From a virus (taxonomy: Duplodnaviria; Heunggongvirae; Uroviricota; Caudoviricetes): DNA of 23,279 bases. Location of the stretch: the IMG/VR virus record IMGVR_UViG_3300029816_000015, positions 1 through 23,279 of that record. One strand, written 5' to 3'. The stretch's first letter is position 1; each line of letters begins with the position of its first letter. A program made the translations under genes and the position numbers. The notes below the pieces were generated by a model. It did not search any database, was not told the DNA's origin, and saw only the letters and a list, made by a program, of their open reading frames with translations. Positions 1-20,570 of this stretch are shown here, piece after piece.

Positions 1-2383
<2,383 letters not shown>

Positions 2384-2384
<1 letters not shown>

Positions 2385-12035: not shown

Positions 12036-13637
12036 TCAACGTCTAAGCCCCTCATATGGGTTCCCTCTCACTAAGTCTGTGTGAGCGCCCATTGATGGTG
12101 GCTTGAATAATTTAACTTCGTTAAGACTGTTGAAAGCATCACTGGTAGCATCCACTTGGTCATCTTTAGTTTTACCATCACCACAAAAGCCTTCAAGTTC
12201 TTGGAAGTAAGCTTCGTTCCAACTACCTCTCAAGACTTTTACAAGTCCAGCTTCAGAAGCAGCAGAAAACCCCGCAAATCGGGTAACTTTATCTTTATTT
12301 GTTGGTTTAGCTCTTGCTCGATAACCTTTCTCGGCAAGTTTCCTGATGAGGGATGTTGCGTAGGATTTACCAGCAGCGCCTGGGTCTTGAGGGATAAAAA
12401 TACCAGTTCGCTTACCGTCACTTTCAGCAGTCAAATTAATTTGTGTTTCGACTCCAGAGGGTCTATCTCTAAATCTTACTACATCAATGATATAATAGCA
12501 ACCGTCTTTTTTAGATTTACCCATCTTAACACCTGCTGTCCAGTCTGGATTAGGGTTAATCTCAGATGGTAAAGTTGCTGCTAAGTCCCATGCTCTGACA
12601 TCGAATACATCCTCTGGGAGTGAATCAACAATTTCACACCATTGTCTTTGCCAATAGTTTGAACCTTCTGCACGAGCCTTCCAGTTACCGAAACGAAGTC
12701 TTGCAACGTTTACAGGAGTGTTGTTTTCCAACTTACCACGATATTTAGGTTCTAAGAAGTCAAGAATTGGGTTATCATCAATCGTACCAGAGATGAATGT
12801 ATATGTTTGAGGAATCTCAAGAGGAAACATTTCGAGAATCTTGTCTCTCTCCCAATCAGAAACCATAACACCATCATTCATTACATACCAACGAATACGA
12901 CCACATTTTTCAGAGTCTGGGTAACCTTCTTCATCTAAGAATGGTTCTACCCAATCGTAAATAAAGTGGTCTCTGTCTGGGTTCATAGAAATCTTCATGT
13001 ATGAATCACCTTCAGCCCCAGAACGTAAACGAGTCTGTAGGTATGAAATCTGTGAAGCAGAGAAGTGCGTACCTTCGTCAAAGTAAATAGCTGAGTATTC
13101 AATACCCTGATGACCTTCAGCGTGCTTTTCAAGTTCTAGATAGGTAAACTTGATAGTTGCCCCAGAAGGGAATGTGATAGTCATCTTCTGCTCGTGAGGA
13201 ACCCCACCAAACTTACCAAATAGTTTCTTTGCAGCAGGCCACAAACCACCTTGTAACTGTGTTGTATTTCGACGGAAATAGACAGCATTATAGTTAGGGT
13301 CATCAATAAACCTTAAAGAGTCCATTAACAATGCAGCCGTCTTACCAGCACCAGCAGCACCACCATAGAGAACCAAGTCGGCATTAGTATTTAAAAAGAC
13401 CTCTTGAGAACCCGGCTGAGGGGCTACATAGTTCTTATCAGTCATTAATTTGAAGATAAGTCTAACTTGGTCTGGTGTGTATCTTAATAAAGTCAGAATT
13501 TGAGTTGGAAGGAATTTAGAGGGGTCTTTACCGAATGATTTGATAATTTCTTTTACTTCATCAGAAAGCCCCAACTCTCCAGCTAGGACTTTCCTAACAT
13601 CTTCCACTCGCTTCTGCTTAACAGCATTTAAGTCCAT
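12036..13637 (-). CDS. Terminase large subunit
   Basis: Walker A motif (LYGGAAGAGKTAALL) in N-terminal ATPase region; about 533 aa; ATG at 13635-13637 with RBS GGAGGTG preferred over the TTG start at 13652 in the ORF track. Confidence 0.85.
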   Translation of the reverse strand: MDLNAVKQKRVEDVRKVLAGELGLSDEVKEIIKSFGKDPSKFLPTQILTLLRYTPDQVRLIFKLMTDKNYVAPQPGSQEVFLNTNADLVLYGGAAGAGKTAALLMDSLRFIDDPNYNAVYFRRNTTQLQGGLWPAAKKLFGKFGGVPHEQKMTITFPSGATIKFTYLELEKHAEGHQGIEYSAIYFDEGTHFSASQISYLQTRLRSGAEGDSYMKISMNPDRDHFIYDWVEPFLDEEGYPDSEKCGRIRWYVMNDGVMVSDWERDKILEMFPLEIPQTYTFISGTIDDNPILDFLEPKYRGKLENNTPVNVARLRFGNWKARAEGSNYWQRQWCEIVDSLPEDVFDVRAWDLAATLPSEINPNPDWTAGVKMGKSKKDGCYYIIDVVRFRDRPSGVETQINLTAESDGKRTGIFIPQDPGAAGKSYATSLIRKLAEKGYRARAKPTNKDKVTRFAGFSAASEAGLVKVLRGSWNEAYFQELEGFCGDGKTKDDQVDATSDAFNSLNEVKLFKPPSMGAHTDLVRGNPYEGLRR

Positions 13638-13658
13638 TAAGCACCTCCGCAAATAGAA

Positions 13659-13859
13659 TTATTCAGAGTCTGTAGCAGTCTCTTCTGTCTTAACTTCGAA
13701 CTTTGCATCAACAGCATCAAGAAGTGCATCCATAGACGCTTCTTGAATATCAATACCTGTTGCTACAGATAATCTGTCTGCAATTGCCATGATAGTGTTC
13801 TGCATAAATTCTAGCTTCTTGTTAGCTTCGTAAAGTTCTTTATAAACGGTCTCGCTCAT
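13659..13859 (-). CDS. Small hypothetical protein upstream of terminase (small-terminase-like position)
   Basis: 66 aa ORF with RBS GGAGAAAA 6 nt upstream of ATG; acidic and helical; smaller than typical small terminases. Confidence 0.45.
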   Translation of the reverse strand: MSETVYKELYEANKKLEFMQNTIMAIADRLSVATGIDIQEASMDALLDAVDAKFEVKTEETATDSE

Positions 13860-13895: not shown

Positions 13896-13919
13896 AAAAA
13901 AGACGGTACAGAGACCGTC
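13896..13919 (-). terminator. Rho-independent terminator (minus sense GACGGU-CUCUGU-ACCGUC followed by UUUUUU)
   Basis: Perfect 6-bp GC-rich stem, 6-nt loop, then six T in minus sense; lies between the tRNA array and the terminase operon. Confidence 0.6.
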
Positions 13920-14157: not shown

Positions 14158-14164
14158 AAATTGG

Positions 14165-14254
14165 AGGAAGATACCAGACTTGAACTGGTACACCGATTTC
14201 TCAGCTACTGGCAGTTTAGCAAACTGCTCCCTTACCTTTTAGGGTTAATCTTCC
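14165..14254 (-). tRNA. tRNA-Ser (anticodon GCT), long variable arm
   Basis: 90 nt; acceptor GGAAGAT/ATCTTCC, T arm ACCAG-TTCAAGT-CTGGT, anticodon stem GCAGT/ACTGC with loop TTGCTAA, long variable arm; CCA encoded. Confidence 0.7.
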
Positions 14255-14255
14255 A

Positions 14256-14990
14256 TTATTTCTGTAATGCGTTCTTCATTTCTGGTGTTGCAATAGTATC
14301 AATTACACCAGTTTTACAAGCATCATCAAACCAGTCTGGTAAGATACCTGCTAAGAACCCATTGATATTCGTTTTAAGGTACTCTGCAATAAGGGCAGCT
14401 TCTTCTTCAATCATCTGCACAACTTCATCTGCATAAGCTGTAATCTTCGAGATACCTTCATTAATCTTACTAACAGCTTGGTTAGCTAAATCAGAAACAG
14501 TATCAAGACCTTTATCAATAGCATCTTGTAAGTCACTTAATACATCATTAACACCGTCTAGTGCACTGTTAATTGTGTCAATAGCTTTTTGACCATACTC
14601 TGTAGCAACACCCATAATACCACTAAATGGTGTACAACCAACTTGCTCTCCTGCTGCACCCATAACATTGGAGTAGCCTTTTGCTACCTGCATACGTGAG
14701 GAAAACTCATCAATAGACTTTTGACCATAATCTGTCAATGTCTTAGTGGTTGATGTAGTGCTTGTCAGACTCGTTGTAAAGCTATTAAGCAGAGCTGTTG
14801 TAAGTCCAGCAGCAATGAGCTTATCCTTCATTGTAGGGTCTGTTACAGAGCTAATAGAGCTTACAAGTGATGTAGAGGCAGCCACGGTTCCACCTAGAAC
14901 TGCTGCACCAGTAATAAGGGGATTAGAAAACCCTCTACCGGTTTTTAAGAGATTAAAAATCTCCTTACCTTGTTCTGTCATCTCTTTCAT
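14256..14990 (-). CDS. Hypothetical protein embedded in the tRNA array
   Basis: 245 aa from ATG 14988-14990 with RBS AAGGTG 5 nt upstream; the ORF-track 5' extension to 15053 overlaps tRNA-Phe and is rejected. Ala/Thr/Ser-rich, helical C-terminal half. Confidence 0.55.
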   Translation of the reverse strand: MKEMTEQGKEIFNLLKTGRGFSNPLITGAAVLGGTVAASTSLVSSISSVTDPTMKDKLIAAGLTTALLNSFTTSLTSTTSTTKTLTDYGQKSIDEFSSRMQVAKGYSNVMGAAGEQVGCTPFSGIMGVATEYGQKAIDTINSALDGVNDVLSDLQDAIDKGLDTVSDLANQAVSKINEGISKITAYADEVVQMIEEEAALIAEYLKTNINGFLAGILPDWFDDACKTGVIDTIATPEMKNALQK

Positions 14991-15008
14991 TAAGCACCTT
15001 TGAAATTG

Positions 15009-15083
15009 GTAGTCCAGTGGGATTTGAACCCTCTTCTCATGTTTTTCAGACACGCGCTTTAACCATATAAGCTACTTGGACTA
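15009..15083 (-). tRNA. tRNA-Phe (anticodon GAA)
   Basis: Acceptor TAGTCCA/TGGACTA; T loop TTCAAAT; anticodon stem-loop CGTGT-CTGAAAA-ACATG; D stem weak. Confidence 0.55.
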
Positions 15084-15091
15084 TAAATTGG

Positions 15092-15164
15092 GGTGACCTA
15101 CGGGATTTGAACCCGTATAGACCATGTTCACAGCATGGGTCATTACCTTTTATGATAAGGCCAC
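15092..15164 (-). tRNA. tRNA-His (anticodon GTG)
   Basis: Acceptor GTGGCCT/AGGTCAC, D stem TCAT/ATGA, anticodon stem CCATG/CATGG with loop CTGTGAA, T arm ACGGG-TTCAAAT-CCCGT, CCA encoded. Confidence 0.7.
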
Positions 15165-15198
15165 ATTTAAGGACTCTCGTAAGAACCCTTAGAAGTGG

Positions 15199-15271
15199 CA
15201 GCGGCATAAGGATTTGAACCTTAATAAGACAGCTTCAGAGACTGTTGCATTGCCAGTTATGCTATACCGCT
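15199..15271 (-). tRNA. tRNA-Gln (anticodon CTG)
   Basis: Acceptor AGCGGTA/TGCCGCT, D stem GCAT/ATGC, anticodon loop CTCTGAA, T arm TAAGG-TTCAAAT-CCTTA, CCA encoded. Confidence 0.65.
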
Positions 15272-15279
15272 AAATTTGG

Positions 15280-15355
15280 TACTCCATATCGGATTCGAAC
15301 CGATACATAACACAGATTTTAAGTCTGGCCTCTCTGCCAATTGGAGTAATGGAGC
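15280..15355 (-). tRNA. tRNA with Leu anticodon TAA but short variable arm (76 nt)
   Basis: Acceptor GCTCCAT/ATGGAGT, U8, D stem CTC/GAG, anticodon stem CAGA/TCTG with loop CTTAAAA, 7-8 nt variable loop, T arm ATCGG-TTCGAAT-CCGAT, A73, CCA encoded. Confidence 0.5.
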
Positions 15356-15360
15356 ATTGG

Positions 15361-15433
15361 CGGGGGATGTTGGAATTGAACCAACTTCTTCGATTTCAAA
15401 GACCGAGGTTTTAACCTTGTAAACTAATCCCCT
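15361..15433 (-). tRNA. tRNA-Gln (anticodon TTG)
   Basis: Acceptor with A1-C72 mismatch, T arm GTTGG-TTCAATT-CCAAC, anticodon stem TCGGT/ATCGA with loop CTTTGAA, CCA encoded. Confidence 0.6.
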
Positions 15434-15441
15434 TTAAATCT

Positions 15442-15999
15442 TTACTTTCTTAGTGGATGAATAAAGAATGCCAACATAACTCTTTCCCTTGAGAATGCTC
15501 TTTCTTCTGGGACAACACTTTTAAGTTTCCACCCAACATAAATTCTCCAGTAGAATTGCTTACCAAAGACTTTAATTGACGGGATAAAAGCGAATAATCC
15601 CCAAGCATTACTGTTCCACATTAGGAGATAACCTGTCTGATTATCTTCAGGGTTAGAACTTACATTGATATTACCTTTCCACTTAGTAACATCTTTTACA
15701 TCTCTTCCTAACACATGGTAAGAGAAGTTATAAGCTTTGTTTCTCCAGAGCCAACCAACTCTCTGCATATAGACACCAAGCTTACCAATCTTTCTAATCT
15801 TAGCCCATCGTTCGACATGACCTTTATCACCATCAATTGGGTTGTCATATGTCTCCATCCATCTGAATCCAAAAGGGAGATGTCCTTTCTTCTCACTGTA
15901 GAATGGAACTACGAAAGGTGCTAAGATAACTGCTAAGATTGCTGCAAATGGCTCTAACAAAGCTAAGAAAATCCATGAAGCATACTTCAAATATCTCAT
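15442..15999 (-). CDS. Hypothetical membrane protein embedded in tRNA array
   Basis: 185 aa ORF with RBS AAGAGG upstream of ATG; N-terminal hydrophobic helix (WIFLALLEPFAAILAVILAPFVVPF), Trp/Lys-rich remainder; flanked tightly by tRNA genes. Confidence 0.55.
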   Translation of the reverse strand: MRYLKYASWIFLALLEPFAAILAVILAPFVVPFYSEKKGHLPFGFRWMETYDNPIDGDKGHVERWAKIRKIGKLGVYMQRVGWLWRNKAYNFSYHVLGRDVKDVTKWKGNINVSSNPEDNQTGYLLMWNSNAWGLFAFIPSIKVFGKQFYWRIYVGWKLKSVVPEERAFSRERVMLAFFIHPLRK

Positions 16000-16021
16000 C
16001 TAAATAGCCTCTTTAAATTGG

Positions 16022-16094
16022 CGCAGGATAAGGGATTCGAACCCCTATTAACAGCTTCGTAGACTGTTGCTCTATCCATTTGAACTAATCCTGC
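16022..16094 (-). tRNA. tRNA-Arg (anticodon ACG)
   Basis: Acceptor GCAGGAT/ATCCTGC, T arm AGGGG-TTCGAAT-CCCTT, anticodon stem ACAGT/GCTGT with loop CTACGAA, CCA encoded. Confidence 0.65.
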
Positions 16095-16425: not shown

Positions 16426-16436
16426 CATTAATTTGG

Positions 16437-17414: not shown

Positions 17415-17617
17415 ATTAATCTTTAAAAACTCTCTTAGAAAGCCCTTAAAGATGCCCACCTTATTAATCATACCGTGGGCTAGTACGCCAAATTCTTTGA
17501 TGAGGGATTGGAAGACCTCACTGGTGTTTAGCCTATCAAGCTACTGCCAGAAAAACATTGTCGTTTGCATTTATTTTAAATTTGCAAAATAGACGCTACG
17601 CAACGAAAACTAAGGTT

Positions 17618-17646
17618 ACTATAAAGTGGTCACATCTAAATGTCAA
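17618..17646 (-). promoter_or_regulatory. Sigma70-like promoter inside the tRNA array (minus sense TTGACA-N17-TATAGT)
   Basis: -35 TTGACA at 17646..17641 and -10 TATAGT at 17623..17618 with a 17-bp spacer; predicted start near 17610, about 195 nt upstream of tRNA-Arg(TCT). Confidence 0.5.
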
Positions 17647-17664
17647 CAACTTTATTGAAATTGG

Positions 17665-17737
17665 TACTGGTAGGTGGAATCGAACCACCGATGTTCCCTT
17701 ATCAGGGGAGTGTTATAACCTTCTTAACTATACCAGC
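17665..17737 (-). tRNA. tRNA-Ile (anticodon GAT)
   Basis: Acceptor GCTGGTA/TACCAGT, T arm GGTGG-TTCGATT-CCACC, anticodon loop CTGATAA, CCA encoded. Confidence 0.7.
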
Positions 17738-19155: not shown

Positions 19156-19521
19156 TTACCAGATATAACGGTCAACCATTACTGCTTTGAGCATTACGCT
19201 GATTGGGTCAAACTTCTCACCACCAAGCAGAGCTTTTAAAGTGGCTGGAGAGAACCCTGATACCATCGCTACACCATTATCCTTAACAGATACTTCGCAA
19301 GTACCATTACGGTTTGCTAAGTACCAGAATACTAGTTGTGGCATTTCGTATCCAGCTTTTTTGTACTTACTCTGAATTGCTTCAAAGTTTGTACGACCAT
19401 TTGCACCATCAACCTGATTAAACTCCATATCAGAGAAGATAATAAGCTTACTTGGCATATCTTTCTGAGTCAAGTTGTTTCTCTTACCTATCTCAAGAAT
19501 ACGGTCAAAGCTGCTTGTAAG
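19156..19521 (-). CDS. C-terminal part of Ro60/Rsr-like (or DUF2828-like) vWA-domain protein, out of frame with N-terminal part
   Basis: Frame open from just after a TAA at 19522-19524; encodes LTSSFDRILEIGKRNNLTQKDMPSKLIIFSDMEFN... (second half of a vWA fold). ORF track entry 19156..19473 begins at an internal TTG. Confidence 0.55.
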   Translation of the reverse strand, partial: LTSSFDRILEIGKRNNLTQKDMPSKLIIFSDMEFNQVDGANGRTNFEAIQSKYKKAGYEMPQLVFWYLANRNGTCEVSVKDNGVAMVSGFSPATLKALLGGEKFDPISVMLKAVMVDRYIW

Positions 19522-20570
19522 TTAGTTGAACCATATTCAACATGACGCATTACCTGACGATGACGGTTTCGTAAATCACCACTCAGTTCAATGAAATGAG
19601 GGTTTGTTGAATAGACCATTAACTCATCTTTAAAGCAACCTGTATTGCGTTCTGCTACATACAAGGCAAGTGATACACCAATATCAAGGGCAGTGATTGA
19701 ACCAAGATTCACCCAAGACATTGAGCTTGAAACATCAGTCATACACAAGATGTTCTCACCTTCTGCCATCCAGTTTGGTAGTGCTTTCCACTGCTCATTA
19801 GCAACATCTGCATTACCATGCTTGATAGACTTAATCACATCGTATGGGTAGACAGCACCAGCATTAATCTTAGCCTCACCTTTTGATAAGGACTCAATGT
19901 AAGCTTTGTAGCGTTCTCCATCTTTGCGGTTAAAGAGCTTTTGGTAACGTGCAGCAGCAAGAGACGGAATCTTACTGTAATCAATCTTACCAAACTCATT
20001 AGCAGAGATTTTTTGCTCAACCGTATCAGACAGTGCAGATAACAGTGTGCGGTATTCTTTCTCGCTTAAGTTTGCAAACTTACAGAAACGTTTTACAAAC
20101 TGTTTGTGTCGTGGTTTTACTCGTGGTAACCACTTGGCTGCTAAACCTGCTGTCTCAGGGTCTAGTAATGCTGCTTCTAAATGCTTAAAGGCATCTGTCT
20201 CAAAACGAGTACCTACGAAGATTTTGAAGTCATCAAAACGACCAAGTTCTGCAATCTTATCCATAATACGAAGAAACTGTGTAGGCTCTAAAACTTTATC
20301 TTCGATTGCTTGAAGTAAAACAGTTCTGAAGGCTTTACGCTCACCCATACCTTCTCGTACATCTCGCATGTGAAGCAAAATACGAACTGCAACATCAACA
20401 TCCTCACGCAAAGCTTTGTAGAACAAGTCTGGTAAGATTTCTACATTGCTACGGCTTGAACCAGCAGCTTTGTAAAAGTCCACAAGAGCAGACATTGATG
20501 AAGTATGGTTTACAGCACCATTTTCAGTTCGACCTGCATGAAGGTGCGCATGTTTAAATAATTCGCTCAT
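19488..20570 (-). CDS. N-terminal part of Ro60/Rsr-like (or DUF2828-like) protein: helical domain plus start of vWA domain
   Basis: 360 aa; RBS AAGAGAG upstream of ATG; helical N-terminal about 280 aa, then DxSxS motif (CMTDVSSSMSW) typical of a vWA MIDAS; ends at TAG 19488-19490 inside the vWA domain. Confidence 0.6.
   Translation of the reverse strand: MSELFKHAHLHAGRTENGAVNHTSSMSALVDFYKAAGSSRSNVEILPDLFYKALREDVDVAVRILLHMRDVREGMGERKAFRTVLLQAIEDKVLEPTQFLRIMDKIAELGRFDDFKIFVGTRFETDAFKHLEAALLDPETAGLAAKWLPRVKPRHKQFVKRFCKFANLSEKEYRTLLSALSDTVEQKISANEFGKIDYSKIPSLAAARYQKLFNRKDGERYKAYIESLSKGEAKINAGAVYPYDVIKSIKHGNADVANEQWKALPNWMAEGENILCMTDVSSSMSWVNLGSITALDIGVSLALYVAERNTGCFKDELMVYSTNPHFIELSGDLRNRHRQVMRHVEYGSTNLQAALTVFLR

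What the first reader, a model, noticed from the sequence alone, without database searches (positions are those of the whole stretch)
14256..15999. Two protein genes embedded in the tRNA array
A 245 aa Ala/Thr/Ser-rich helical protein (14256..14990) and a 185 aa protein with one N-terminal transmembrane helix (15442..15999) sit between tRNA genes with their own RBSs. Such cargo inside phage tRNA clusters is often accessory (superinfection exclusion, host takeover, RNA metabolism), but the function here is unknown.
Basis: inference. Interest (0 to 1): 0.4.

Follow-up and report, generated by a model that had tools for sequence, protein, structure and literature searches.

The report
Two conserved genes in tRNA array
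Two real, strongly conserved protein genes sit among the tRNA genes of a Felix O1-type phage: one is probably a minor virus-particle protein and the other a swappable membrane protein whose database label "holin" has never been tested. Both belong to known gene families whose functions are still open.

Summary
Both ORFs lie on the minus strand, co-oriented with 26 tRNA genes of a Felixounavirus, and each has its own ribosome-binding site. ORF-A (14256..14990) is 244 aa, not 245. ORF-B (15442..15999) is 185 aa. Both are under strong purifying selection (dN/dS about 0.09 and 0.06).

ORF-A is Pfam DUF7217 (Felix O1 gp49, Bas63 gp159). It is not cargo. It is fixed at the boundary between the tRNA array and the terminase gene throughout Ounavirinae. 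It is shared with Ackermannviridae, where a late promoter drives it and two independent proteomes detected it in purified virions. It is predicted with high confidence to be an elongated helical bundle. It is most likely a low-copy virion protein.

ORF-B is Pfam DUF7338 (Felix O1 gp48, Bas63 gp153). It is genuine cargo: a single-pass membrane protein with an alpha/beta domain that matches no solved structure. Its distribution is patchy, and a sister genus carries an unrelated ORF in the same slot. In large virulent phages it almost always lies beside tRNA genes. The "holin" label rests on topology alone. T4-like carriers also have a canonical T holin, although some small phages place the gene just upstream of their lysis cassette.

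Both genes are already annotated in hundreds of genomes. Their functions remain untested.

The parts
14256..14990 (-). ORF-A: 244-aa DUF7217 protein (Felix O1 ORF49, Bas63 gp159). Acidic, Ala/Thr/Ser-rich, elongated helical bundle.
   Evidence: PF23854, 301 bits; phrog_2114. (AF2 pLDDT 94.3, all helical). (dN/dS 0.093). (orthologs).
14995..14999 (-). Shine-Dalgarno AGGTG, 4 nt upstream of the ORF-A ATG.
   Evidence: Read from the sequence.
15442..15999 (-). ORF-B: 185-aa DUF7338 protein (Felix O1 ORF48, Bas63 gp153). N-terminal transmembrane helix followed by an alpha/beta domain of about 150 aa, pI about 10.
16008..16012 (-). Shine-Dalgarno AGAGG, 8 nt upstream of the ORF-B ATG.
   Evidence: Read from the sequence.
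16019..16094 (-). tRNA-Arg(acg). Its 3' end lies 19 nt upstream of the ORF-B start codon.
15358..15433 (-). tRNA-Gln(ttg). Its 5' end (the RNase P site) lies 8 nt after the ORF-B stop codon. This 8-nt spacer is the same in every Felixounavirus locus examined.
15007..15082 (-). tRNA-Phe(gaa). Its 3' end lies 16 nt upstream of the ORF-A start codon.
14162..14254 (-). tRNA-Ser(gct). Its 5' end lies 1 nt after the ORF-A stop codon. In Yersinia phage P778 the same tRNA follows the ORF-A homolog, and in Erwinia phage M7 it precedes it.
17618..17646 (-). Sigma-70-like promoter TTGACA-17-TATAGT inside the array, identical in sequence and position to Felix O1 'P45'. It is the nearest candidate promoter upstream of both ORFs.
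   Evidence: 11 of 12 match. PMC3185647.
19017..19137 (-). Two further sigma-70-like promoter matches just upstream of the first tRNA of the array.
   Evidence: 10 of 12 each. Consensus matches only.
13902..13919 (-). First terminator-like hairpin with a T-run downstream of the array, after tRNA-Cys. The scan found no terminator-like site on this strand between the promoters and this point.

Best explanation
Both ORFs are genuine phage genes. They are probably transcribed together with the tRNAs on one minus-strand precursor and released by tRNA processing. RNase P would cut 1 nt (ORF-A) and 8 nt (ORF-B) after their stop codons, and 3' maturation of the upstream tRNA would leave 16-19-nt leaders that carry only the RBS. 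This step is inferred from the spacing and from the established pathway of tRNA maturation.

The two genes are of different kinds.

ORF-A (DUF7217) is a core gene of Ounavirinae, shared with Ackermannviridae. It is most likely a low-copy virion protein. It is a 25.6-kDa acidic, elongated helical bundle that includes an Ala/Gly/Ser/Thr-rich hydrophobic helix. I infer that it is packaged or tail-associated, released at infection, and helps genome delivery, for example by inserting into a membrane.

ORF-B (DUF7338) is exchangeable cargo that travels with tRNA clusters. It is a single-pass inner-membrane protein, probably N-in/C-out. Its alpha/beta domain has no structural match in the PDB and carries invariant polar and aromatic residues (T50, D52, W83, R86, N87, G156, W157) that suggest a specific ligand or partner. 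I think it acts on the cell envelope as an accessory factor, either in superinfection exclusion or envelope modification, or as a modulator of lysis. I do not think it is the phage's canonical holin.
For: Real genes:
- Pfam DUF7217 and DUF7338 score far above their cut-offs.
- dN/dS is 0.09 and 0.06.
- RT-PCR transcripts were reported for Felix O1 ORF48 and ORF49.

Co-transcription:
- The ORFs share the strand of the tRNAs. Spacers are 16-19 nt upstream and 1-8 nt downstream. There is no terminator-like site until 13919..13902. A P45-like promoter lies at 17646..17618.

ORF-A:
- It occupies the same position in Felixounavirus, Mooglevirus, Kolesnikvirus and Yersinia phage P778.
- Full-length homologs at 27-29% identity occur in Ackermannviridae, between the major-capsid region and the gp3 tail-completion gene.
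- A perfect TATAAATA late promoter lies 30 nt upstream of the homolog in phage Se-G.
- LIMEstone1 ORF129 was found in virions (2 peptides, 18% coverage; PMC3296691).
- Sajous1 gp166 was found in CsCl-purified virions with 8 spectra, the same count as the tail-completion protein (PMC10892097).
- There are weak HMM matches to tape-measure proteins.

ORF-B:
- The family has 840 clusters at 50% identity, and nearly all of the 150 listed are 165-200 aa and single-domain.
- Invariant residues were read from 84 divergent members.
- It is replaced by an unrelated ORF in Sf19.
- RB43 carries both DUF7338 and a canonical T holin, and hhalign between the two families gives 0.2% probability.
- In small phages it lies between tail-fibre genes and a separate holin-endolysin pair.
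- In 51 of 52 loci at 55% identity or more, a same-strand tRNA lies within 1.1 kb upstream.
Against: ORF-A:
- No proteome or structure shows it in a Felixounavirus virion. It is missing from the stringent Felix O1 shotgun list.
- The paper's 'gp49' band is 51 kDa, against 25.6 kDa predicted, so it is probably a numbering mix-up.
- It is not among the chains modelled in the Bas63 cryo-EM entries.
- RT-PCR placed ORF49 in the 5-min class, although the major capsid protein fell in the same class.
- A GenBank note says that its C-terminal 150 aa 'complements red mutants of lambda'. That points to DNA metabolism.

ORF-B:
- In 5 of 18 distant lineages it sits directly upstream of the lysis genes. 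In L073 it is immediately followed by the endolysin with no other holin in between.
- The Mushroom genome paper called it a class-III holin.
- Its orientation in the membrane is not established.
- No homology to any known exclusion protein was found.

Processing of the precursor was not measured.
Confidence: 0.5

Rival explanations
1. ORF-B is the phage's holin: a class-III, T4-T-like holin with one transmembrane domain and a large periplasmic domain. It would time lysis by forming holes in the inner membrane for the soluble endolysin.
For: - The topology fits.
- The Center for Phage Technology annotated it this way in phage Mushroom (PMC4392139), and later records copied the label.
- No holin is adjacent to the Felix O1 endolysin.
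- In distant small phages the gene lies just upstream of the endolysin (L066, L073, L093) or of a holin-endolysin pair (L068, L081).
Against: - T4-like carriers keep their own T holin.
- L068 and L081 have a separate phrog_3427 holin.
- It is absent from Kolesnikvirus, the Yersinia relative and Mooglevirus, which must still lyse their hosts.
- It lies in early-gene regions of T4-likes and inside the tRNA transcription unit here. The RT-PCR maximum was at 5 min.
- The strongest conservation is in the soluble domain, not in the transmembrane segment.
- Other holin candidates exist in Felix O1 and Bas63.
Confidence: 0.25
2. ORF-A is not structural. It acts on DNA ends or recombination early in infection, for example by blocking RecBCD, as suggested by the old 'red' label.
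For: - GenBank AF071201 annotates the C-terminal 150 aa as 'red; complements red mutants of bacteriophage Lambda'.
- RT-PCR showed ORF49 maximal at 5 min.
- Injected end-protecting proteins exist elsewhere, such as T4 gp2. This could be reconciled with the detection in virions.
Against: - There is no similarity to Exo, Beta, Gam or T4 gp2 (hhalign 1.1%).
- Ackermannviridae that carry DUF7217 also carry a true gp2.
- The complementation is documented only as a database note, on a truncated clone.
- The protein is acidic (pI 4.4) and has no recognisable DNA-binding motif.
Confidence: 0.12
3. The genes sit in the tRNA array because they work with the tRNAs, for example in tRNA repair or protection, or in countering anticodon nucleases.
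For: - DUF7338 is linked to tRNA genes in Felixounavirus, Otagovirus, several T4-like genera and three unclassified contigs.
- A Ro60-like RNA-binding gene flanks the array.
Against: - ORF-B is a membrane protein with no RNA-related domain.
- About 30 distant homolog loci have no same-strand tRNA within 5 kb (one has a tRNA on the opposite strand), and several of them lie beside tail-fibre or lysis genes.
- ORF-A homologs in Ackermannviridae are not near tRNAs.
- Linkage is explained more simply if tRNA clusters are recombination and insertion hot spots. The same slot holds an unrelated ORF in Sf19, and HNH endonucleases sit in other arrays.
Confidence: 0.05
4. One or both ORFs are chance reading frames between tRNA genes and are not translated.
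For: No proteomic detection of either product is reported for a Felixounavirus.
Against: - dN/dS is below 0.1.
- Homologs extend down to 25% identity in other virus families.
- AF2 models are confident.
- RBSs are well placed.
- DUF7217 peptides were found in two Ackermannviridae proteomes.
Confidence: 0.01

Closest known systems
Pfam DUF7217 (PF23854), phrog_2114: Felix O1 gp49, Bas63 gp159, LIMEstone1 ORF129, Sajous1 gp166
   Same: Full-length HMM match at 301 bits. Same length, same invariant residues (G18, F21, N23-P24-L25, C119, W220, D223, C225) and same predicted helical bundle.
   Different: Nothing distinguishes the window's copy. It is 97-99% identical to hundreds of deposited sequences. 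The family has no assigned function.
Pfam DUF7338 (PF24027), phrog_2143: Felix O1 gp48, RB43 ORF080w, Mushroom 'holin'
   Same: Full-length HMM match at 208 bits. It is 100% identical to the protein of phage vB_EcoM_DE17 and keeps the conserved WLWRN, TxDN..DGD and GWKL motifs.
   Different: Nothing distinguishes the window's copy. The family is uncharacterised, and the 'holin' name in some records is inferred from topology.
T4 holin T (Pfam Phage_holin_T, class-III holins)
   Same: One N-terminal transmembrane helix followed by a globular domain of about 150 aa. The gene is separated from the endolysin gene, as in T4.
   Different: There is no sequence, profile or fold similarity. It coexists with T in T4-like phages, sits in an early-type genomic context, and is dispensable across Ounavirinae genera.
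Phage superinfection-exclusion and envelope proteins encoded as morons (T4 Imm and Sp, T5 Llp, T1/phi80 Cor)
   Same: Small envelope-located accessory proteins with patchy distribution. They are encoded in early regions or next to tail-fibre genes, as DUF7338 is.
   Different: There is no homology to any of them. There is no lipobox; the protein contains no cysteine. The resemblance is functional analogy only and was not tested.
Ejected or membrane-active helical virion proteins (tape-measure C-terminal regions; P22 and T7 ejection proteins)
   Same: ORF-A is helical, rich in Ala/Thr/Ser/Gly, has one moderately hydrophobic helix, gives weak HMM hits to tape-measure families, and its homologs occur in virions at low abundance.
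   Different: It is far shorter than a tape measure. The phage has its own 747-aa tape measure at 141..2384. The matches are compositional (E 1e-4 to 1e-6 to parts of long profiles). No ejection has been shown.
tRNA-punctuated transcripts (mitochondrial punctuation model; E. coli thrU-tyrU-glyT-thrT-tufB operon)
   Same: Protein-coding sequence is flanked within 1-19 nt by tRNAs on the same strand, so tRNA processing would define the mRNA ends.
   Different: This is only inferred here. No transcript ends were mapped.

Membership tests
Pfam DUF7217 (PF23854) | Whole-protein HMM score above the gathering threshold (29 bits), covering the full model | tested here: met
   301.5 bits, E 6.4e-90, residues 8-243 on model positions 2-238 of 238.
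Pfam DUF7338 (PF24027) | Whole-protein HMM score above the gathering threshold (27 bits), covering the full model | tested here: met
   208.5 bits, E 8.1e-62, residues 1-184 on model positions 1-176 of 180.
T4-type (class III) holin, Pfam Phage_holin_T | Sequence or profile similarity to T | tested here: not met
   No PF11031 hit at E<=1. RB43 T scores 188 bits on PF11031, but hhalign against the DUF7338 profile gives 0.2% probability.
T4-type (class III) holin, Pfam Phage_holin_T | Single N-terminal transmembrane domain with a large C-terminal periplasmic domain (N-in, C-out) | tested here: inconclusive
   One strong TM helix at residues 2-33 followed by a 150-aa domain. The orientation is only inferred.
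T4-type (class III) holin, Pfam Phage_holin_T | Soluble domain has the T fold | tested here: not met
Holins in general | It is the lysis-timing membrane protein of its phage: it is genetically required, usually next to the endolysin, and expressed late | tested here: inconclusive
   Against: it is 7-8 kb from the endolysin on the other strand and lies in the tRNA unit. T4-likes, L068 and L081 carry another holin. Three Ounavirinae lineages lack it. For: it lies directly upstream of the endolysin in L073, L066 and L093.
Holins in general | Lethal, triggerable hole formation in the inner membrane | not testable with these tools
   Needs expression and energy-poison triggering assays.
Virion structural protein (ORF-A) | Physically present in purified particles | tested here: inconclusive
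   Homologs were detected in LIMEstone1 (2 peptides) and Sajous1 (8 spectra) virions. There is no clear detection in Felix O1, and the protein is not modelled in Bas63.
Virion structural protein (ORF-A) | Late expression, and genomic association with morphogenesis genes | tested here: met
   It is the last sizeable gene before the terminase in all Ounavirinae examined. In Ackermannviridae it lies between the major capsid protein and gp3, with TATAAATA 30 nt upstream. Timing in Felix O1 is ambiguous.
Tail tape-measure protein | Long protein (length scales with the tail) encoded after the tail chaperones; full-length family match | tested here: not met
   Only partial, weak PHROG hits (E 8e-6 or worse) to segments of 700-1800-position profiles. 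The true 747-aa tape measure is at 141..2384.
T4 gp2 DNA-end protector | Homology to gp2, or replacement of gp2 in genomes that lack it | tested here: not met
   hhalign gives 1.1% probability. Kuttervirus genomes with DUF7217 also encode gp2.
Lambda Red/Gam recombination functions | Homology to Exo, Beta or Gam, or demonstrated complementation | tested here: not met
   No Pfam, NCBIfam or PDB sequence hit. The only support is an unpublished-style GenBank note on a truncated clone. The complementation itself cannot be tested here.
Known anti-phage defence or exclusion proteins (PADLOC, NCBIfam) | HMM match to a described family | tested here: not met
   ORF-B has no hits. ORF-A has only sub-threshold coiled-coil-type matches to ZorA, 16 bits against cut-offs of 100 or more.

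The most novel reading that the evidence does not exclude
Either of two readings would be new.

(a) DUF7217 is an unrecognised virion component shared by two otherwise unrelated myovirus groups. In Felixounavirus it could be the unidentified helix-rich trimeric density that rings the tip of the puncture apparatus in the Bas63 and Sf14 cryo-EM maps. As a membrane-inserting protein it would be delivered first at infection.

(b) DUF7338 is a new kind of envelope-acting phage protein. It has a fold absent from the PDB and has spread among unrelated virulent phages by riding on tRNA clusters. Its mRNA would be cut out of the tRNA precursor.
Probability: 0.2. Interest if true: 0.6.

Novelty: already known. 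Interest (0 to 1): 0.33.

Why it matters
Felix O1-type phages are diagnostic and biocontrol workhorses, and Bas63 is now a structural and genetic model. Even so, two of their best-conserved non-module genes have no function.

If ORF-A is a virion protein, the parts list of two myovirus groups is incomplete, and there is a concrete candidate for an unassigned density at the tail tip.

If the 'holin' label on ORF-B is wrong, it is spreading through annotation pipelines and hiding both the real holin and a widespread membrane-protein family (840 clusters at 50% identity) whose fold is not in the PDB.

DUF7338 is repeatedly wedged against tRNA genes in unrelated phages. This makes it a tidy case for studying how tRNA clusters act as exchange sites for cargo, and how mRNAs are expressed from tRNA precursors.

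Tried and rejected
- T4 gp2 analog for ORF-A. The idea came from its position next to gp3 in Ackermannviridae and from the 'red' note. I rejected it because there is no profile similarity and the same genomes encode gp2.
- Tape measure or ZorA-like for ORF-A. The matches are only compositional, coiled-coil type and sub-threshold.
- ORF-A binds the puncture-apparatus tip. The phyletic profile of Bas63 gp21 does not include Ackermannviridae. The short hydrophobic gp28 and gp29 are also unmodelled rivals. I kept this only as a low-probability lead.
- Felix O1 'Gp49 is structural'. The 51-kDa band conflicts with the predicted 25.6 kDa, and the authors discuss it as the sheath. I treated it as unreliable.
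- VpaE1 proteome. The list is in a figure that is not held, and the supplement is uninformative.
- PhageMaP essentiality of Bas63 gp153 and gp159. They are not in the text and no supplement is held. HIDEN-SEQ and the transposon preprints do not cover this phage.
- The afdb50 fold library was unavailable.
- The PDB sequence search gave nothing for either protein.
- A bacterial-genome scan found only 6 loci, mostly phage-like. An alignment of 84 diverse members was too divergent to seed a scan.
- An Rfam scan of the array for Y-RNA-like or other RNAs found only tRNAs.
- Longer DUF7338 proteins have no extra Pfam domains. P0034, which joins DUF7338 to a tail-fibre C-terminus, looks chimeric.
Full report
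**What the window is**

The 23-kb window comes from a Felix O1-type myovirus (Felixounavirus). The 2.2-kb stretch around the finding is 97-99% identical at the DNA level to more than 200 deposited Escherichia, Salmonella and Shigella phage genomes. On the minus strand the window carries the packaging, head and tail genes (terminase at 12036..13652, tape measure at 141..2384). Upstream of these lies an array of 26 tRNA genes, all on the minus strand.

**Check of the observation**

Both ORFs exist at the stated coordinates, on the minus strand.
- ORF-A runs from the ATG at 14990 to the TAA at 14258..14256. It encodes 244 aa, not 245. Its RBS is AGGTG at 14999..14995.
- ORF-B runs from the ATG at 15999 to the TAA at 15444..15442. 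It encodes 185 aa. Its RBS is AGAGG at 16012..16008.

The genes are wedged between tRNAs:
- tRNA-Phe, 16 nt, ORF-A, 1 nt, tRNA-Ser(gct).
- tRNA-Arg(acg), 19 nt, ORF-B, 8 nt, tRNA-Gln(ttg).

ORF-A is Thr/Ala/Ser-rich with pI 4.4. ORF-B has one strongly hydrophobic N-terminal segment and pI about 10.

They are not chance ORFs:
- They match Pfam DUF7217 (E 6e-90) and DUF7338 (E 8e-62) over their full length, and PHROGs 2114 and 2143.
- Across 23-25 distinct Felixounavirus alleles the median pairwise dN/dS is 0.093 for ORF-A and 0.063 for ORF-B.
- The orthologs are Felix O1 ORF49 and ORF48, Bas63 gp159 and gp153, and VpaE1 ORF47 and ORF46.
- RT-PCR detected both Felix O1 transcripts, maximal at 5 min. 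That assay also put the major capsid gene in the same class, so the timing is not reliable (PMC3185647).

**Transcription context**

- A sigma-70-type promoter match (TTGACA-17-TATAGT, 17646..17618) has the same sequence and position as the 'P45' site described for Felix O1.
- Two further promoter matches precede the first tRNA.
- The first terminator-like hairpin on this strand comes only after the last tRNA, at 13919..13902.

I infer that the ORFs are transcribed as part of the tRNA precursor. RNase P cleavage at the downstream tRNA and 3' maturation of the upstream tRNA would then set their mRNA ends. This follows from the spacing and from the established pathway of tRNA maturation. It was not measured.

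**ORF-A (DUF7217)**

*Distribution and position*
- tblastn finds it in 582 phage records. These include all branches of Ounavirinae examined: Felixounavirus, Mooglevirus Sf19, Kolesnikvirus (Erwinia M7, 45% identity) and Yersinia phage P778 (37%).
- In all of these it is the last sizeable gene before one or two tiny ORFs and the large terminase.
- Full-length homologs at 26-29% identity are present across Ackermannviridae (Kuttervirus, Limestonevirus, and phages of Klebsiella and Serratia). There they are not near tRNAs. They lie between the major-capsid region and the gp3 tail-completion gene.

*Evidence for a virion protein in Ackermannviridae*
- In Salmonella phage Se-G a perfect T4-type late promoter (TATAAATA) sits 30 nt upstream of the start. 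LIMEstone1 is annotated with a late promoter at the same place.
- LIMEstone1 ORF129 was recovered from virions with 2 unique peptides and 18% coverage (PMC3296691).
- Sajous1 gp166 was recovered from CsCl-purified virions with 8 spectra, the same count as the tail-completion protein. I confirmed that it is the homolog (27% identity, E 1e-29) (PMC10892097).

*Evidence in Felixounavirus is weaker*
- The protein is not in the stringent Felix O1 shotgun list.
- The 'gp49' assigned to a 51-kDa gel band conflicts with the predicted 25.6 kDa. It probably refers to the sheath.
- The protein is not among the chains modelled in the Bas63 cryo-EM entries, although the major capsid protein of those entries is found readily in the same search.

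*Structure*
- AlphaFold2 with a 36-sequence alignment gives a confident model (pLDDT 94.3). It is all-helical and elongated, with one helix of 57 residues.
- Invariant positions include an N-terminal G..F.NPL motif, two cysteines (C119, C225) and W220/D223.
- Foldseek against viral models recovers only the family itself.
- That search also surfaced UniProt O80222, 'Red protein' of Felix O1. GenBank AF071201 annotates the C-terminal 150 aa of this gene as complementing lambda red mutants. I found no similarity to Exo, Beta, Gam or T4 gp2. Ackermannviridae also carry a true gp2. This remains an unexplained lead, not a function.

*A lead from the Bas63 cryo-EM paper*
- The paper reports at least 23 virion gene products, of which 22 were modelled. 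One unidentified density remains: helix-rich, threefold, ringing the tip of the puncture apparatus. It is also seen in Sf14 (PMC12609058).
- gp19, gp22 and gp25 are modelled. gp28 (65 aa, hydrophobic) and gp29 are not.
- ORF-A is therefore one candidate for this density.
- Two points weaken the idea. The puncture-apparatus protein is not shared with Ackermannviridae. The reported 'two helices per 120 degrees' would also suit a small protein.

*Reading.* My best reading is a low-copy virion protein released at infection. Membrane insertion is an inference from composition and fold class.

**ORF-B (DUF7338)**

*Family and structure*
- A profile search of 1.84 billion representative proteins finds 840 clusters at E<=1e-3. 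Nearly all of the 150 listed are 165-200 aa with the same single-domain architecture.
- In an alignment of 84 members reaching down to 22% identity, W83, R86, N87 and G156 are invariant. P42, T50, D52, G57, G109, G123 and W157 are nearly so. The transmembrane segment itself is poorly conserved.
- AlphaFold2 (pLDDT 92.5) gives a 32-residue N-terminal helix, several short helices and a five-stranded antiparallel sheet.

*Distribution: this gene is cargo*
- It is present in Felixounavirus.
- It is absent from the arrays of Erwinia M7 and Yersinia P778.
- In Mooglevirus Sf19 an unrelated 75-aa ORF occupies exactly the same slot between tRNA-Arg(acg) and tRNA-Gln(ttg).
- Copies at 55-62% identity occur in several T4-like genera (RB43/RB16, Klebsiella, Cronobacter and Salmonella phages). 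More distant copies occur in jumbo phages and in Pseudomonas Otagovirus.
- It is rare in bacterial genomes: 6 loci, all from Gram-negative or diderm organisms.

*The holin label*
- Against it:
  - There is no sequence, profile or fold relation to T.
  - RB43 has both DUF7338 (ORF080w, in the early pseT-cd-31...vs-30 region) and a canonical T holin after gene 38.
  - The gene is dispensable across Ounavirinae genera.
- For a lysis-related role:
  - In 5 of 18 distant lineages the gene lies at the boundary between tail-fibre genes and the lysis cassette.
  - In L073 it is directly followed by the endolysin.
  - In L066 and L093 a short ORF separates it from the endolysin.
  - In L068 and L081 a separate phrog_3427 holin lies between it and the endolysin.
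- That boundary is also a classic site for exclusion and receptor-masking morons.

I therefore favour an accessory envelope-acting role, either exclusion or envelope modification or modulation of lysis. I give the holin reading about 0.25.

*Linkage to tRNA genes*
- In 51 of 52 loci at 55% identity or more, a same-strand tRNA lies within 1.1 kb upstream. These include T4-likes with only 1-3 tRNA genes in about 170 kb.
- In L034 the gene sits between different tRNAs: Asp, 27 nt, ORF, 8 nt, Ser.
- In Otagovirus phiPsa347 (25% identity) it is again embedded in the array.
- Three unclassified contigs have a tRNA upstream: L064 and L065 have it ending about 16-20 nt before the start, and L071 has it about 250 nt upstream.
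- About 30 distant loci have no same-strand tRNA within 5 kb; one has a tRNA 2.4 kb away on the opposite strand.
- I read this as hitch-hiking on tRNA clusters that act as recombination and insertion hot spots, not as a functional tie to tRNAs. The lineages are not independent enough for a formal test.

**Verdict**

- The finding is real and accurately described.
- Both genes are already annotated in hundreds of genomes and belong to curated, uncharacterised Pfam families, so the feature itself is already known.
- The 'accessory cargo' interpretation fits ORF-B but not ORF-A.
- This analysis adds four things:
  - a documented case that DUF7217 is a minor virion protein shared by two myovirus groups;
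  - evidence that the 'holin' label on DUF7338 is unsupported by homology and by co-occurrence with true holins;
  - the absence of any PDB match for the DUF7338 fold;
  - the recurrent tRNA linkage of DUF7338.
- Functions remain to be tested. The decisive experiments are listed separately.

Noticed in passing
window 19156..20570 (-), frameshift near 19509: The Ro60/TROVE-like 'RNA-binding protein' gene next to the array (Felix O1 ORF42; Bas63 gp130, reported to counter the Ppl defence) is split into two ORFs here (19488..20570 and 19156..19473). The cause is a 1-nt deletion in a T-run relative to EcoM2 (TTTT to TTT). This is either a pseudogene or a sequencing error.
   Followed up: yes
window 16427..16433 and 17415..17661, compared with L010 (Felix O1) and L001 (EcoM2): This phage has no HNH homing-endonuclease ORFs inside its tRNA array. 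Felix O1 has three (ORF44, 45, 47). EcoM2 has a 137-aa ORF of the same size in the same slot as ORF47, between tRNA-Gly and tRNA-Thr, annotated only as hypothetical. In the window those two tRNAs are 7 nt apart.
   Followed up: partly
L103 (Shigella phage Sf19) 3341..3568; several Felixounavirus loci (e.g. L016, L022-L028): The slot between tRNA-Arg(acg) and tRNA-Gln(ttg) is variable. Sf19 holds an unrelated 75-aa ORF instead of ORF-B. A subset of Felixounavirus genomes have an insertion of about 240 nt between tRNA-Arg and ORF-B (spacer 256-257 nt instead of 19).
   Followed up: partly
window 14162..14254 (-): The long-arm tRNA-Ser(gct) directly after ORF-A is annotated as tRNA-Arg (AGA) in the Bas63 record and is missing from the Felix O1 RefSeq feature table. 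ARAGORN and Rfam both call it here.
   Followed up: partly
window 17536..17720 (-): A weak, sub-threshold Rfam match to permuted tmRNA (29 bits against a gathering score of 47, E 0.006) overlaps tRNA-Ile and the gap downstream of it. The Mushroom paper mentions an ARAGORN-predicted tmRNA in Felix O1. ARAGORN found none in this window.
   Followed up: no
window 13659..13859 (-): A conserved 66-aa ORF (Felix O1 ORF51, Bas63 gp1) lies immediately upstream of the large terminase in a phage group with no recognised small terminase. It has no Pfam match.
   Followed up: no
L003 5324..5746, L009 3288..3755 (Ackermannviridae); BFVD A0A0N7CDB8: In Ackermannviridae a small membrane-anchored SLOG/YspA-family protein (annotated 'GTP-binding domain') lies two genes upstream of the DUF7217 gene. 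PHROG 289 and a 475-aa protein of Salmonella phage 38 join the two, which suggests occasional fusion or mis-annotation.
   Followed up: partly
L005 (Bas63) 23128..23325 and 23322..23693: Bas63 gp28 (65 aa, hydrophobic N-terminus) and gp29 (123 aa) lie right after the tail-fibre genes and are absent from the deposited cryo-EM models. They are alternative candidates for the unidentified helix-rich density at the tail tip, or for the holin (their Felix O1 counterpart gp79 was listed as a holin candidate).
   Followed up: partly
protein P0034 (metagenomic): One metagenomic protein joins the N-terminal half of DUF7338 to a Gp53-like tail-fibre C-terminal domain. It is probably an assembly or recombination chimera.
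   Followed up: no
PMC3185647 (Felix O1 genome paper) compared with L010: The paper lists 'Gp49' as a structural protein on the basis of a 51-kDa band and discusses it as a possible sheath. ORF49 in the RefSeq record is the 25.6-kDa DUF7217 protein, and the sheath is gp63 (48.9 kDa). The published structural list probably contains a numbering error.
   Followed up: partly
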